Shown: in pieces, positions 2,525 to 6,178 of the stretch
How positions within the stretch are numbered: position 1 is the stretch's first letter
How the letters are laid out: each line of letters opens with the position of its first letter
DNA from: Fidelibacterota bacterium
GTDB lineage: Bacteria > Fidelibacterota > UBA8477 > JABMPR01
Assembly (NCBI GenBank): GCA_016845065.1
Contig: JAERTG010000023.1
Location: 54,055 to 118,054, forward strand
Direction of reading: 5' to 3'
DNA: 64,000 nt
Notes under the pieces: generated by a model
What the model saw: the letters and a program-made list of their open reading frames with translations, nothing else
Told to the model about the DNA's origin: nothing
The model's database searches: none
Made by a program: the position numbers and the translations under genes

Positions 2525-2821
2525 ATGGATATCGGGAAACAATTGAGACTTGTGCGGGAAGCACATCAGATTCTACAGAAGGATCTCGCCACAAGTGCAG
2601 GTCTAGACAAAAGCTATATTAGCAAGCTTGAGCGCGGTTTAGCAGATCCAACCTTTTCAACTCTGTCAAAAATATCAAAGGCCTACAATCTCTCAGTTGC
2701 CCACATGCTGAATTATGGGAGCGAGGAAACATTCAGTCTAGATATTGACGCAGCCCTTGACGCACTTAAGACTTTAAAATACAACATGGTAAATGTTGAG
2801 ATTAATATTAAACCTCTTTAG
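2525..2821 (+). CDS. XRE/Cro-C1 family HTH transcriptional regulator
   Basis: LRLVREAHQILQKDLA...LDKSYISKLERGLADPTFSTLSKI is a typical HTH_3 pattern. Confidence 0.85.
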   Translation: MDIGKQLRLVREAHQILQKDLATSAGLDKSYISKLERGLADPTFSTLSKISKAYNLSVAHMLNYGSEETFSLDIDAALDALKTLKYNMVNVEINIKPL

Positions 2822-2877: not shown

Positions 2878-3246
2878 CTATTTATAGCGATATTCAAATG
2901 GAATTGCGTAGGTCAATGCAACTGGAATCCCATTCTGCATTGCTGGCTTCCATTGCGTATTCAAGACTGCATTAACAGCAGATCGGTCAAAGTTTGATCC
3001 ACCACTCTGGGTAACCCGTATGTCTGAGACATTGCCTTGGATGTCAACATGAAAACTCAGTATGACATCGGCATTATTACGGACGATACGATCAAAAGTT
3101 GGGTAAACAATGTTACGTGCCAATGCTTTCATCCCGCCCACAGGCATGGGATTACAACATTTCTTTTCAGCCTGTGGTTCAGCCATCAATTGTGTTACAC
3201 CAACTAATAGTATCAAGGCAGTTATGTAGCGTTTCATTCTGTTCAT
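2878..3246 (-). CDS. Small exported protein consisting of a TonB C-terminal domain
   Basis: Signal peptide, then P.GG..AL..NIVYP...V.LSF.VD..G.V..I.V..S....FD..AV.AV....W.PA.Q.G.PV. Confidence 0.85.
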   Translation of the reverse strand: MNRMKRYITALILLVGVTQLMAEPQAEKKCCNPMPVGGMKALARNIVYPTFDRIVRNNADVILSFHVDIQGNVSDIRVTQSGGSNFDRSAVNAVLNTQWKPAMQNGIPVALTYAIPFEYRYK

Positions 3247-3577: not shown

Positions 3578-3650
3578 GCGAGAGTAGCTCAGTTGGTAGA
3601 GCTCCACGTTGCCAACGTGGTTGTCGCCGGTTCGAGTCCGGTCTCTCGCT
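3578..3650 (+). tRNA. tRNA-Gly(GCC)
   Basis: Acceptor GCGAGAG/CTCTCGC, D-arm AGCTCAGTTGGTAGAGC, anticodon arm CCACG-TTGCCAA-CGTGG, T-loop GTTCGAG. CCA not encoded. Confidence 0.97.
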
Positions 3651-3651
3651 C

Positions 3652-3686
3652 AAAAAAAAGAGGCTGAATTTTCAGCCTCTTTTTTT
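3652..3686. terminator. Bidirectional intrinsic terminator
   Basis: A-tract AGAGGCTGAA-TT-TTCAGCCTCT T-tract, between the converging tRNA-Gly and selenoprotein genes. Confidence 0.9.
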
Positions 3687-3705
3687 ATACATTTTTTTTA
3701 TCTAG

Positions 3706-4857
3706 TTAATGCCCCTTGTGATTGTCCTTTTCAGCCTTCTTGGTCTCATCAGGCATATAATCCTTAACAATCATGGCAATTTCAGGTGTATCCTCAATTT
3801 TATCATTTAATGGGATCGGTTCCAAGAAGTAGCTGTTTTTTAACTTCTTGATTAAATCCACGTTGGTCTTGCGTTCATCCCGAAGACGTGCGATAAGTTT
3901 TAACCTATTTTCATCTTCAGCAAAATGCTCTTCCAGAGTCATCCCCTCTTCCAGGCCTCTGGACATTGCTTTTAGACGATTATCCGCAAACTTGATACGC
4001 GTGTATTGAGAACTCACATTTTTCATTTGACTGACAGGATCAACATTCCTTATCCTCAACACACCTGCATACTTCCCCTGTTTACCAATTCGGATAATGG
4101 TGGTACCGTCCTTCTGTTTTGGATTTCTTTGTAATGATCCTGTCTTGGATCTAATTACAAAATTAATGCCCTTTACCTCTGCGACAACAGACCGTTCTAA
4201 TTTGTCATCCCCGTTGGTCATGAGAAAAATCAGATCCACCTTATCTTTTATTTCATCAATTGCATTTTGAGCAGCCTCAATGGGGTCTGAAAAAGCAAAT
4301 TCCTTTACTCTGGGATCTCCCTTGGTGATACCAATGAAACCCAGGGTCTGGTCATGGGTCTCGACAATGGTATATGGTTCAAAAAGAAATTTATTTGTAT
4401 TGGCATCTTTGGTGTTCGCTGAAATGATGGGGAAATTGGCTAGATCGTTCATCTCGAGAATGAAGTCTAGGCCTCCGGCCAGATCATTTGTCCCCACATT
4501 CATAACCTGACATTCCATGATGTTGTAGGATGCAATGATGGCCCTGGCTGTTTCTTTCAAATGATCACGTTGCGCTTCAGCAACATAAGGATGCTTGAAT
4601 AATGCATCTCCTGCGTCCACAAGATAGACTGCCTCTGTTTCAGCAAGTCCTTTCATAATTGTATGCTTCCTGGCGAGACCGCCAAGTGGATTAGAGCGTC
4701 AGCCGCAGGGTCCTACTTCCCCATCATTACTGGCTGCAACCATAAGCGTGAATTCATTTGCATTATATGAAGGATTGGTAGACTCACTTTTACATCCCAC
4801 TGCCACGAGGGTAATGAGCATGAGCATCAATCCTGATTGTTTGAGAAGTAGCTTCAT
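3706..4857 (-). CDS. UshA/5'-nucleotidase-like metallophosphoesterase-fold selenolipoprotein (383 aa, Sec at codon 53)
   Basis: RBS AGGA, ATG at 4857, lipoprotein signal (MKLLLKQ...LVAVG-C), then GEVGPCG-UGA(4699-4701)-RSNPLGGLARK in frame with the 316-aa ORF carrying VDAGD and FPIISAN motifs. A SECIS-like hairpin follows the UGA. Confidence 0.88.
4669..4686 (-). promoter_or_regulatory. Putative bacterial SECIS element
   Basis: CUUGGCG-GUCU-CGCCAGG: 7-bp stem starting 13 nt after the UGA, with a 4-nt apical loop beginning with G. Confidence 0.75.
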
Positions 4858-4870
4858 TGTTTATCCTGTT

Positions 4871-6178
4871 TCAACCTTTATTCATAAGTGCTTCAATTTC
4901 AGATATCTCTTTAGGAACAGCTGCTGTGAGGTTTTTGTTCCCGGACTCAGTAATAAGAATATCATCTTCAATTCGTATACCAATACCCTTGAACTTCTCA
5001 GGTGCCTTGGATTTTGAATTGACATAAATACCAGGTTCTACTGTAAATACCATGCCTGGTTTAAGCTCGATGGATTCTCCATCAGCCATGTAATTTCCCA
5101 TATCATGGACATCCAAACCCAGCCAATGGCCGGTGTTGTGCATGAAATAGTCTTCATAACTTTTATTTTCGATAACCTCATCAGGGGTACCATCCAATAA
5201 ACCGATTTCAATCATTCCCTCCACCAGAAGTCTCAAATCAATATTATGAAGTTCCTTAAAGGTGACACCAGGTTTAGAGGCTTCAATTACTGCCTTCTGG
5301 GCTTTAAGAACTACTCCATATATGGCCTTTTGGGCTTCAGAGAAATTCCCATTCGCAGGGAAGGATCTGGTGATATCTGCAGCATACATGTCATATTCGG
5401 CAGCAGCATCAATGAGAATCATATCACCATCAACTATCTGATCACGATTTTTTATGTAATGCAAGACTGTAGCGTTGTCGCCAGCTCCAACAATGGAGGT
5501 GTAGGCAGGTCCCGCACTTCCTTCGTGAACAAAATGGCTTTCCAACACAGCTTGTAGTTGATACTCAAACATTCCGGGAGAACAGGCCTTCATGGCTTTC
5601 GAATGGGCATCGGCAGAGATATCGGCAGCCTTTTGTAGAAGCCCTATTTCGTGTTCATCCTTAATCAGTCTCATACCATGGGTGAGCGTACCAACGGATT
5701 CAAGTCCTACTGGACCTCCGCCTCTCCTCTGTACATCTTTGCGAACCTGACCCACATAATCCAACATCTTGTACTGGTGTTCTTTATCGTGATTCAAGTT
5801 GGTGTAAACTTTGGACGAGGACTTCATCGCAGCCAGTGTAGCCGTTTCGAATTCTGCGATATCAAGAGCTTGATCGGATTTATATTTTTTTACCGTTTCA
5901 TCAAAACTGAGTCTCCAGCCTGTCCACACCTCTTTTTTAGGATCCTGTGGAAGTACAAACAATGTGAATGGATTTTCCTTGTTATTTGGATCTATGATGC
6001 AAGCTGCGCCAGGTTCCGTATACCCCGTGAGATAAAAGAAGTCCGAATCCTGTCTGTATGGGTATTCAGTATCATTGGTACGTATTTGTTCAGGTGCCCC
6101 TTTCAGGATCGCAACACCCTTACCCATAAGTTTTATTAAGTTTTGTCTGCGTTTATTGTAAATGTCACTCTTAAACAT
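4871..6178 (-). CDS. pepP: Xaa-Pro aminopeptidase (aminopeptidase P, M24B)
   Basis: YRQDSDFFYLTG, LHY, LIDAAAE..MYAADITRSFP, HNTGHWLGLDVHD, FTVEPGIY, GIRIEDDI. Confidence 0.95.
   Translation of the reverse strand: MFKSDIYNKRRQNLIKLMGKGVAILKGAPEQIRTNDTEYPYRQDSDFFYLTGYTEPGAACIIDPNNKENPFTLFVLPQDPKKEVWTGWRLSFDETVKKYKSDQALDIAEFETATLAAMKSSSKVYTNLNHDKEHQYKMLDYVGQVRKDVQRRGGGPVGLESVGTLTHGMRLIKDEHEIGLLQKAADISADAHSKAMKACSPGMFEYQLQAVLESHFVHEGSAGPAYTSIVGAGDNATVLHYIKNRDQIVDGDMILIDAAAEYDMYAADITRSFPANGNFSEAQKAIYGVVLKAQKAVIEASKPGVTFKELHNIDLRLLVEGMIEIGLLDGTPDEVIENKSYEDYFMHNTGHWLGLDVHDMGNYMADGESIELKPGMVFTVEPGIYVNSKSKAPEKFKGIGIRIEDDILITESGNKNLTAAVPKEISEIEALMNKG

What the first reader, a model, noticed from the sequence alone, without database searches (positions are those of the whole stretch)
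3706..4857. Hidden selenoprotein: exported UshA-like lipoprotein with CxU motif and SECIS
Seen: the 316-aa ORF lacks its N-terminus. Reading through one UGA (4699-4701) adds a complete RBS/ATG, a lipoprotein signal peptide and the motif GEVGP-C-G-U-RSNPLGGLAR. A 7-bp hairpin with a GUCU loop follows, with the loop starting 20 nt after the UGA. Known: bacterial SECIS elements lie just 3' of the UGA with a G at the start of a small apical loop, and UshA-like CxU/CxC proteins are a described but functionally uncharacterised selenoprotein family. Inference: the organism has Sec machinery and exports a membrane-anchored selenoprotein, which standard callers would truncate or label a pseudogene.
Basis: partly seen in the sequence, partly recalled or inferred. 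Interest (0 to 1): 0.85.

Follow-up and report, generated by a model that had tools for sequence, protein, structure and literature searches.

The report
Missed exported selenoprotein, UshA-like family
A gene that annotators cut short at a UGA codon really encodes a full-length, exported, selenocysteine-containing lipoprotein of an already described but functionally unknown family, and it is conserved across almost the whole marine phylum that this genome belongs to.

Summary
On the minus strand, 3706-4857 is one 383-codon gene with an in-frame UGA at 4699-4701. The genome has tRNA-Sec, selA, selB and a Sec-containing selD. In 73 of 73 related genomes fetched because they were flagged with one TGA, that TGA sits at this column. 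Sixteen stop-free relatives have Cys there, 14 of them in families where selA was not found. The hairpin is supported by comparison. Synonymous sites of its nine codons are frozen in Sec forms (0.137 against 0.797 elsewhere) but not in Cys forms that encode the same peptide, and stem pairs change in a compensatory way. The protein is a UshA/CD73-fold lipoprotein. Four of the five metallophosphoesterase motifs are degenerate, and Cys-Gly-Sec follows the first motif, so it is probably not a nucleotidase. It is a relative of NCBIfam NF041198 that scores below the cut-off because it lacks the cytochrome c tail. The family has been in print since 2008. This is a real but known kind of gene; its function is still open.

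The parts
3706..4857 (-). Complete coding sequence of the selenoprotein: 383 codons plus a TAA stop at 3708-3706
   Evidence: Read-through translation. Full-length matches over query residues 1-383, each with one TGA, in relatives.
4864..4867 (-). AGGA, a Shine-Dalgarno-like site 6 nt upstream of the ATG at 4857-4855. The upstream pepP gene stops at TGA 4873-4871.
   Evidence: Read directly from the sequence. Its function is inferred.
4792..4857 (-). Signal peptide with a lipobox-like VAVGC. Cys22 (4794-4792) is the predicted lipidation site.
   Evidence: A lipobox-like pattern was found by regex in 29 of 30 Sec-form orthologues, and by eye (FYGC) in the 30th. No dedicated predictor was run.
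4699..4707 (-). Cys51-Gly52-Sec53 (TGC GGC TGA). The Sec codon is 4701-4699.
   Evidence: TGA at this column in 73 of 73 fetched TGA-bearing loci, and Cys in 16 of 16 stop-free relatives.
4669..4686 (-). SECIS hairpin CUUGGCG-GUCU-CGCCAGG, which overlaps the codons for L58 G G L A R63
   Evidence: The core GGCGGTCT is present in 69 of 73 Sec loci and 1 of 13 Cys loci. Synonymous sites are frozen. Stem pairs change in a compensatory way.
3653..3686 (.). Palindromic G+C-rich hairpin between an A run and a T run. It is an intrinsic-terminator-like site shared with the convergent tRNA-Gly (3578-3651, + strand).
   Evidence: One search listed it on the + strand. Action on the minus strand is inferred from the symmetry seen.
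4871..6178 (-). Upstream neighbour, Xaa-Pro aminopeptidase (Peptidase_M24 plus AMP_N). It ends 13 nt before the selenoprotein's ATG and is probably co-transcribed.
   Evidence: A gene confirmed by Pfam as the same kind lies upstream on the same strand in L063 and L068. ORFs of similar size lie there in L053, L059, L060 and L062 but were not scanned. It is absent in L064, L065, L067 and L069.

Best explanation
This is a genuine selenoprotein gene. Shown or strongly supported: the UGA at codon 53 is decoded as selenocysteine. SelB carrying Sec-tRNA(Sec) would bind the hairpin that starts 12 nt after the UGA and has the conserved apical GGUCU. Inferred from the sequence pattern: the product is exported through its signal peptide, lipidated at Cys22, and tethered to a membrane facing the periplasm. 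Supported by the model and by motif comparison: the mature protein keeps the UshA/CD73 metallophosphoesterase fold, but four of the five signature motifs are degenerate. DxH has become S-N-D, GNHE has become G-T-N-D, the lone His has become Asn, and GHxH has become R-S-K-T. Only the GD motif (D81-A-G-D84) is kept, and there is no 5'-nucleotidase C-terminal domain. Inferred, at roughly 40% confidence: the protein is not a nucleotidase, and Cys51-Gly-Sec53, on the loop just after the first motif at the mouth of the former metal pocket, is the working site. That site would be a selenenylsulfide redox couple, or a ligand for a soft metal or a chalcogen. Full members of the family carry a multihaem cytochrome c tail, which points to electron transfer. 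This clade lacks the tail and would need a separate partner.
For: The frame is continuous through one TGA. The Sec machinery is complete: tRNA-Sec at 72 bits (gathering score 47) with anticodon tca, selA, selB, and selD with its own TGA. TGA is otherwise a normal stop. It ends 9 of 38 long frames in the window, including pepP. Phylum survey: 175 of 201 genomes have a relative at E <= 1e-10, and 129 of the 141 good-quality ones do. TGA is at the column in 73 of 73 fetched loci, which were chosen because they were flagged with one TGA. Cys is at the column in 13 of 13 stop-free loci and in 3 of 3 loci of family f6. selA was found in 149 of 201 genomes, and in none of families f5 (0/2), f6 (0/33) and f11 (0/13). 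Those three families hold 14 of the 16 Cys forms. The region upstream of the UGA is conserved as protein while its codons vary freely. The ATG of the 316-aa ORF is not conserved: I, L, Q or V stand there in relatives. Normalised codon entropy of the nine hairpin codons is 0.137, against 0.797 for 103 other conserved columns in 30 Sec genes (Mann-Whitney p = 7e-7). In 13 Cys genes that encode the same PLGGLARK it is 0.732 against 0.638. Compensatory pairs: U-A 17 and G-C 7 at one pair, and six standard pair types with no mismatch among 20 at another. The covariation score exceeds 500 of 500 shuffles for both pairing registers. AF2 model: mean pLDDT 89.9, pTM 0.84. Foldseek: CD73 6xue_A at E 3e-21, and UshA and 3ivd_A at TM 0.53-0.61. 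The motif degeneracy is read from the profile alignment to 3ivd. Pfam gave no PF00149 or PF02872 hit at E <= 1. NF041198 scores 219.2 bits over model positions 2-377 of 519. The tail of that model is cytochrome-like.
Against: No experiment shows selenium in this protein. The hairpin in the single sequence is no more stable than its shuffles (z = -0.12), and no Rfam family matches it. The two pairing registers were assigned by which one gives the longer stem, so the per-register pair tables are partly circular. On the pooled alignment each register is matched by a one-column slide, which is the other register. Three TGA-form genomes gave no selA hit: G076, G150 and G143, which are 86, 71 and 82% complete. 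I cross-checked this by hand from the tables. Two Cys forms lie in genomes that do have selA (G031, G153). The functional part rests only on motif loss, motif position and the domain make-up of relatives. I could not measure distances in the model because no coordinates were available. Gene neighbourhood gives no functional hint.
Confidence: 0.9

Rival explanations
1. The gene is a pseudogene, or the UGA is an assembly or sequencing error. In that case only the 316-aa ORF, or nothing, is made.
For: All 45 close database gene calls are truncated forms of 216-329 aa. The single-sequence hairpin is not significant.
Against: The same TGA is at the same column in 73 of 73 fetched genomes, down to about 27% identity, with the upstream 52 codons conserved as protein. 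The internal ATG is not conserved. Contigs of two runs are identical over 3650-4900, though those runs may be the source.
Confidence: 0.01
2. The organism reads TGA as an ordinary sense codon (Trp or Gly, as in NCBI tables 4 or 25), so the residue is not Sec.
For: Four database proteins, P0047-P0050, show W at this column.
Against: TGA ends 9 of 38 long frames in the window, including the adjacent pepP. The nearest genomic relatives of P0047 (56-58% identity) have TGA opposite that W, so the W probably comes from gene calling with another code; that is an inference. Stop-free relatives have Cys, never Trp or Gly. Dedicated Sec machinery is present.
Confidence: 0.01
3. UGA-53 is passed by near-cognate read-through (Trp or Cys), or is a regulated stop that yields a 52-residue lipopeptide. 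The hairpin would then be a translational pause or attenuator and not a SECIS.
For: No direct evidence of Se incorporation. No Rfam SECIS match.
Against: The TGA form goes with selA and the Cys form with its absence across families. The hairpin core GGCGGUCU is lost in 12 of 13 Cys forms. Hairpin spacing and a G-first small loop fit the bacterial SECIS rules as I recall them from the bSECISearch papers; I did not re-read them here.
Confidence: 0.03
4. The protein is a working periplasmic 5'-nucleotidase or phosphodiesterase like UshA, and the Cys-Gly-Sec plays only an accessory or regulatory part.
For: Fold match to CD73 and UshA at E 3e-21. Profile hits to nucleotidases at E 4e-29. Some sources name the truncated relatives 2',3'-cyclic-nucleotide 2'-phosphodiesterase. 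The GD motif and several acidic residues are kept.
Against: There is no PF00149 hit at E <= 1 and no PF02872 substrate-binding domain. Motifs I, III, IV and V, which carry the metal ligands and the catalytic His, are replaced across the clade. The motif meanings are recalled textbook knowledge. The Sec/Cys pair is the best-conserved feature, as expected for a catalytic residue.
Confidence: 0.1

Closest known systems
NCBIfam NF041198, UshA_like_PCGU, 'UshA-like (seleno)protein'
   Same: The P-C-G-U/C motif followed by SNPLGG. The UshA-like domain and the helical region after it align to model positions 2-377 at E 9e-65. Both have an N-terminal signal sequence.
   Different: The score is 219.2 bits, below the curated cut-off of 275. 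All six forms of this clade that were scanned (five from genomes of the phylum plus database protein P0047) score 175.8-219.2. Model positions of about 398-512, a multihaem cytochrome c554-like tail present in P0052 (287.3 bits) and P0053, are absent here. The gene ends at a terminator next to a tRNA gene.
'COG0737, UshA-like' CxU selenoprotein family of marine metagenomes (GOS analysis, PMC2398784; reviews PMC9312934 and PMC13188914)
   Same: The CxU motif, COG0737/UshA homology and marine origin. It is listed among the 20 major marine selenoprotein families, and its function is unknown. I saw passages only.
   Different: The passages I saw name no host phylum and give no SECIS, architecture or active-site analysis. 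I could not confirm that the GOS sequences are this short form.
E. coli UshA and human CD73 (ecto-5'-nucleotidases)
   Same: The N-terminal metallophosphoesterase fold (Foldseek E 3e-21 to 1e-20, TM 0.53-0.61). Both are exported.
   Different: About 18-20% identity. Motifs I, III, IV and V are degenerate and there is no C-terminal nucleotide-binding domain. Cys-Gly-Sec has no counterpart; 3ivd has Y-K-V there.
SoxB thiosulfohydrolase (TIGR04486; PDB 4uwq, 2wdc)
   Same: Weak homology in the same superfamily (E 3.5e-13; 4.6e-12). It is periplasmic and acts on a cysteine-bound sulfur species, which makes sulfur or selenium chemistry on this fold conceivable. That last point is recalled knowledge.
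   Different: 48.7 bits against a cut-off of 550. SoxB keeps a dimanganese site (recalled). There is no Sox context here.
E. coli fdhF-type bacterial SECIS
   Same: A hairpin shortly after the UGA with a small apical loop containing GGUC/GUCU. This is recalled, not tested here.
   Different: Here the element is also the code for the conserved peptide PLGGLARK. It occurs in two pairing registers that go with Ala or with Pro/Ser at one codon.

Membership tests
Bacterial selenoprotein gene (SelB/SECIS-dependent UGA decoding) | An in-frame UGA conserved in orthologues, with coding conservation on both sides | tested here: met
   73 of 73 fetched TGA loci have it at the column. The upstream codons are under protein-level constraint.
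Bacterial selenoprotein gene (SelB/SECIS-dependent UGA decoding) | Cys-containing homologues aligned to the UGA | tested here: met
   16 of 16 stop-free relatives have Cys there. P0052-P0054 have PCGC.
Bacterial selenoprotein gene (SelB/SECIS-dependent UGA decoding) | A SECIS hairpin just 3' of the UGA, conserved as a structure | tested here: met
   All 47 distinct cores form 3-8 bp stems, and 46 of them have 4 bp or more. Synonymous sites are frozen. Compensatory pairs are seen. The single-sequence z-score is not significant, and there is no Rfam hit.
Bacterial selenoprotein gene (SelB/SECIS-dependent UGA decoding) | selA, selB, selC and selD in the genome | tested here: met
   all four are above the curated cut-offs.
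Bacterial selenoprotein gene (SelB/SECIS-dependent UGA decoding) | Selenium in the protein | not testable with these tools
   Needs 75Se labelling or mass spectrometry.
NCBIfam NF041198 UshA_like_PCGU | Whole-protein HMM score at or above the curated cut-off of 275 bits | tested here: not met
   219.2 bits. Five other forms of this clade score 175.8-214.8.
NCBIfam NF041198 UshA_like_PCGU | The P-C-G-U/C motif in a UshA-like domain | tested here: met
   GPCGU at residues 49-53. C51 and G52 are nearly invariant in alignment A2.
NCBIfam NF041198 UshA_like_PCGU | A C-terminal multihaem cytochrome c region (model positions of about 398-512) | tested here: not met
   The match ends at model position 377. 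CxxCH-rich tails are seen only in P0052-P0054. A stand-alone cytochrome elsewhere in the genome matches that part of the model.
NCBIfam NF049981 UshA-like selenoprotein family 2 (CxxU) | HMM score at or above 140 bits and a CxxU motif | tested here: not met
   36.6 bits. The motif here is CxU.
Metallophosphoesterase / 5'-nucleotidase (PF00149 plus PF02872, UshA NF007109) | The five signature motifs with the metal ligands and the catalytic His | tested here: not met
   Only the GD motif is kept. No PF00149 hit at E <= 1. NF007109 scores 48.5 bits against a cut-off of 600.
Metallophosphoesterase / 5'-nucleotidase (PF00149 plus PF02872, UshA NF007109) | The overall N-domain fold | tested here: met
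   Foldseek E 3e-21, TM 0.53-0.61, on a model with pLDDT 89.9.
Metallophosphoesterase / 5'-nucleotidase (PF00149 plus PF02872, UshA NF007109) | The C-terminal nucleotide-binding domain PF02872 | tested here: not met
   No hit. The protein ends at residue 383.
Bacterial lipoprotein | A signal peptide ending in a lipobox with an invariant Cys | tested here: inconclusive
   The pattern is present here (VAVGC) and in 29 of 30 Sec-form orthologues by regex. No LipoP or SignalP run was possible. The Cys forms of family f11 lack the Cys and look like plain secreted proteins.

The most novel reading that the evidence does not exclude
The protein is a former phosphoesterase whose dimetal centre has been given up and replaced by a Cys-Gly-Sec site. 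That would make a new kind of periplasmic redox or chalcogen/metal-handling catalyst on the UshA fold. It would be a near-universal envelope component of one of the ocean's most abundant uncultured phyla (175 of 201 sampled genomes). Selenium would be swapped for sulfur only in lineages where selA was not found.
Probability: 0.3. Interest if true: 0.6.

Novelty: new member of a known kind. Interest (0 to 1): 0.35.

Why it matters
In practice, this gene and its orthologues are filed in public databases as truncated hypothetical proteins of 216-329 aa, or with W at the Sec position. The curated NCBIfam model that would rescue them scores this clade below its cut-off because the clade lacks the cytochrome tail. 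I infer that automatic annotation will keep missing them across a whole phylum. In biology, a selenoprotein present in 175 of 201 sampled genomes of this marine phylum ties the group's envelope physiology to selenium supply. It also gives a clean natural experiment: Sec with a SECIS, against Cys without one, in lineages with and without selA. The function of the UshA-like CxU family is still unknown. The degenerate metal site and the cytochrome-fused relatives narrow the search to redox or ligand chemistry at Cys-Gly-Sec.

Tried and rejected
Rfam scan of 4550-4800 at E <= 10: no match.

Single-sequence folding significance: none.

Pfam on the read-through protein gave only an insignificant Hydrolase_6 hit.

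Gene neighbourhood gave no functional lead. I saw pepP upstream in several families, and a LIM/DA1-like protein, PCMT, PspC or an FMN dehydrogenase in others.

Expression: no RNA holder was listed.

Run X3 laid nothing, which is no proof of absence.

The pooled-alignment pair counts cannot separate the two registers, because each is a one-column slide of the other.

I considered and rejected a split-gene reading in which the stand-alone cytochrome at G000:C112:5817-6266 is the missing tail. It lies on another contig, and I have no evidence of linkage.

I did not ask for supplements. Those of PMC2398784 and PMC13188914 may hold the sequences and taxa of the UshA-like family, and could show whether this short form was already listed.

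Print searches for a link between this phylum and selenoproteins and for the family showed no paper on this protein in this phylum. I judged this from the listings only.
Full report
WHAT IS THERE. On the minus strand, a 52-codon ORF (4699-4857) and a 316-codon ORF (3706-4656) lie in one frame and are separated only by TGA 4699-4701. Reading that TGA through gives a 383-residue protein. The start has AGGA at 4867-4864, six bases before the ATG at 4857. The N-terminus is a signal peptide ending in VAVGC, with Cys22. Residues 46-63 read GEVGPCGURSNPLGGLAR. The gene ends with TAA at 3708-3706. A palindromic terminator-like hairpin follows at 3653-3686, and then a convergent tRNA-Gly. The upstream gene is an Xaa-Pro aminopeptidase whose own stop codon is TGA, 13 bases before the ATG.

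IS THE UGA READ AS SEC? The window lies in a 4.05-Mb assembly that is 93% complete. Record titles of close relatives place it in Candidatus Neomarinimicrobiota, the Marinimicrobia or SAR406 group.

- The assembly holds a tRNA-Sec (72 bits against a gathering score of 47; ARAGORN calls it tRNA-SeC with anticodon tca). It also holds selA (517.7 bits), selB (347.9 bits) and selD (370.2 bits, itself with one in-frame TGA in a ...AAGU AGK... context).
- TGA is otherwise an ordinary stop codon: it ends 9 of 38 long frames in the window.
- In a sample of 201 genomes of the phylum, 175 have a relative at E <= 1e-10 (129 of the 141 good-quality ones; 76 of 78 genera). Almost all listed matches carry exactly one in-frame TGA.
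- I fetched 73 such loci, including the window's own. They were chosen because they were flagged with one TGA, so the test is of position and not of frequency. In 73 of 73 the TGA aligns with codon 53, down to about 27% protein identity.
- The 13 listed matches that cover the column without a stop all have Cys there. Twelve read C-G-C. One divergent sequence is aligned less surely.

SEC AND CYS FORMS FOLLOW THE SEC MACHINERY. selA was found in 149 of the 201 genomes, and in none of families f5 (0/2), f6 (0/33) and f11 (0/13). Eleven of the 13 Cys forms come from f11 and f5. Three f6 genomes that I checked also have Cys (CGC twice, CDC once). Two Cys forms sit in genomes that do have selA (G031, G153). 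Three TGA forms sit in incomplete genomes where selA was not found (G076, G150, G143; 86, 71 and 82% complete). I made this last cross-check by hand from the tables.

THE TWO-GENE READING FAILS. The 52 codons upstream of the UGA are conserved as protein while their synonymous sites vary freely. The ATG that starts the 316-aa ORF is not conserved: Ile, Leu, Gln or Val stand there in relatives. Contigs of two runs are identical to the window over 3650-4900. Those runs may be the source of this DNA, so this is weak support.

IS THE HAIRPIN A SECIS? On its own it is not convincing. The 71-nt stretch folds no better than its shuffles (z = -0.12), and no Rfam family matches. The comparison with relatives decides the question.

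- In 30 Sec-form genes, the nine codons that make up the hairpin (N-P-L-G-G-L-A-R-K) have a mean normalised codon entropy of 0.137. The 103 other conserved, degenerate columns of the same genes have 0.797 (Mann-Whitney p = 7e-7).
- In 13 Cys-form genes that encode the same peptide, the values are 0.732 and 0.638. The nucleotides are therefore frozen only where a UGA has to be recoded.
- The core GGCGGTCT stands at bases 19-26 (counted from the U of UGA) in 69 of 73 Sec loci and in 1 of 13 Cys loci. The one Cys locus is G031, which has selA, and it looks like a recent Sec-to-Cys change.
- All 47 distinct Sec cores can form a stem of 3-8 pairs around this core, and 46 of them have 4 or more. Of 12 distinct Cys cores, 9 give 0-2 pairs and 3 give 4-5.
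- Two pairing registers occur. One has the loop GUCU, where the codon after Leu is Ala GCC. The other has the loop GGUCU, where that codon is Pro or Ser (NCN).
- Within the registers there are compensatory changes. Pair 18-31 is U-A in 17 cores and G-C in 7, with 3 mismatches; this is Leu CUU to CUG together with Arg AGG to CGG, both synonymous. Pair 18-30 takes six standard pair types with no mismatch among 20 cores.
- One caveat applies. Registers were assigned by the longer stem, which is partly circular. On the pooled alignment each register beats 500 of 500 shuffles in covariation score, but it is matched by the one-column slide that is the other register.

WHAT KIND OF PROTEIN IS IT? NCBIfam's best match is NF041198, UshA_like_PCGU, 'UshA-like (seleno)protein'. 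It scores E 9e-65 and 219.2 bits, below the curated cut-off of 275, and covers model positions 2-377 of 519.

- The missing part of the model is a multihaem cytochrome c region. Database relatives P0052-P0054 have PCGC and CxxCH-rich tails with Pfam cytochrome domains.
- P0052 passes the cut-off with 287.3 bits. A stand-alone cytochrome elsewhere in this genome matches model positions 400-511.
- All six forms of this clade that I scanned score 175.8-219.2 bits.
- An AlphaFold2 model built on a 35-sequence alignment is confident (mean pLDDT 89.9, pTM 0.84; residues 51-60 average 78). Its best structural matches are CD73, E. coli UshA and the putative nucleotidase 3ivd (E 3e-21 to 1e-20, TM 0.53-0.61).
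- A profile search of PDB sequences agrees: 3ivd at 4e-29, and SoxB only at 5e-12.

THE ACTIVE SITE IS DEGENERATE. In the profile alignment to 3ivd, the nucleotidase shows the classical motifs TNDLH, DAGD, GNHE, LIHEG and GHAH. This protein has A-S-N-D, D81-A-G-D84, G-T-N-D, M-T-N-G and R-S-K-T at the same places. The meaning of these motifs as metal ligands and catalytic His is recalled textbook knowledge. Pfam finds neither PF00149 nor the C-terminal nucleotide-binding domain PF02872. Cys51-Gly-Sec53 lies six to eight residues after the first motif, where 3ivd has Y-K-V. I therefore think the protein is not a nucleotidase and that Cys-Gly-Sec is its working site. The site would be a selenenylsulfide redox pair or a ligand for a soft metal or chalcogen. 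The haem tails of the full family members hint at electron transfer. This functional reading is inference, at about 40%. I could not measure distances in the model.

EXPORT. A lipobox-like pattern precedes a Cys at residues 21-30 in 29 of 30 Sec-form orthologues by regex, and in the 30th by eye (FYGC). The Cys forms of family f11, which have genomes of about 1 Mb, have a plain signal peptide without that Cys. No dedicated predictor was available.

WHAT IS KNOWN. The GOS selenoproteome paper (PMC2398784, passages seen) lists 'COG0737, UshA-like' with motif CxU among the 20 major marine selenoprotein families. It lists the family as one of three without a typical Cys-based redox motif. Two reviews (PMC9312934 and PMC13188914, passages seen) list it with COG0737 or NF041198, and list a second family NF049981 with CxxU. 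This protein does not belong to that second family (36.6 bits against a cut-off of 140). Searches that paired the phylum's names with selenocysteine or selenoprotein showed no paper on this protein in the listings.

ANNOTATION IN PUBLIC DATABASES. The 45 close database hits are all 216-329 aa and cover 55-83% of the query; those that are named are mostly 'hypothetical protein'. Four more distant hits are full length with W at the Sec column. The nearest genomes have TGA opposite that W. I infer that these come from gene calls made under a code that reads TGA as Trp.

VERDICT. The gene is a real selenoprotein missed by annotation. It belongs to a known but functionally uncharacterised family, in a short form without the cytochrome tail that falls below the curated model's cut-off. 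Interest is moderate to low (0.35) because the family has been in print since 2008.

Noticed in passing
G000:C50:180859-181779 (locus L018): The genome's selD carries an in-frame TGA (context AAGU-AGK) followed by a hairpin UCCAGG-GGA-CCUGGA. Selenophosphate synthetase is therefore itself a selenoprotein here. Its hairpin does not share the GGUCU loop.
   Followed up: partly
L065:115-1317 (-) and L067:155-1363 (-): In related genomes the divergent neighbour is a protein of about 400 aa with LIM domains and a DA1-like peptidase domain (Pfam E 4e-17 to 2e-18). As far as I recall, these domains are mostly known from eukaryotes.
   Followed up: no
L071 (G031:C40:8269-9773): This is a Cys form (TGC) in a genome that has selA. 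It still keeps the SECIS core GGCGGTCTTGCCAGG and looks like a recent Sec-to-Cys replacement.
   Followed up: partly
database proteins P0047-P0050: These are full-length relatives from short metagenome contigs, printed with W at the Sec column. The nearest genomes have TGA there, so the W is probably an artefact of gene calling under a code that reads TGA as Trp.
   Followed up: yes
window 4661-4692: In run X1, two extra contig fragments of 31-32 bases, each with one differing letter, lie exactly on the SECIS region at depths of 43-60. The host contig has depth 37. This fits the element being shared almost unchanged by other populations in the sample.
   Followed up: no
window 2878-3246 (-) and 2525-2821 (+): A small 122-aa protein with a TonB C-terminal domain (Pfam E 3.5e-16), and an XRE-like 98-aa ORF that I did not scan, lie just beyond the tRNA-Gly.
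   Followed up: no
L025: A contig titled as an uncultured Lentisphaeria MAG carries an orthologue 76% identical to the window's protein, with the same TGA. The label or the binning may be wrong.
   Followed up: no
window residue 232 of the protein (codon at 4164-4162): The window's protein has Asn where at least 90% of the aligned relatives have Asp (D232 is nearly invariant in alignment A2).
   Followed up: no
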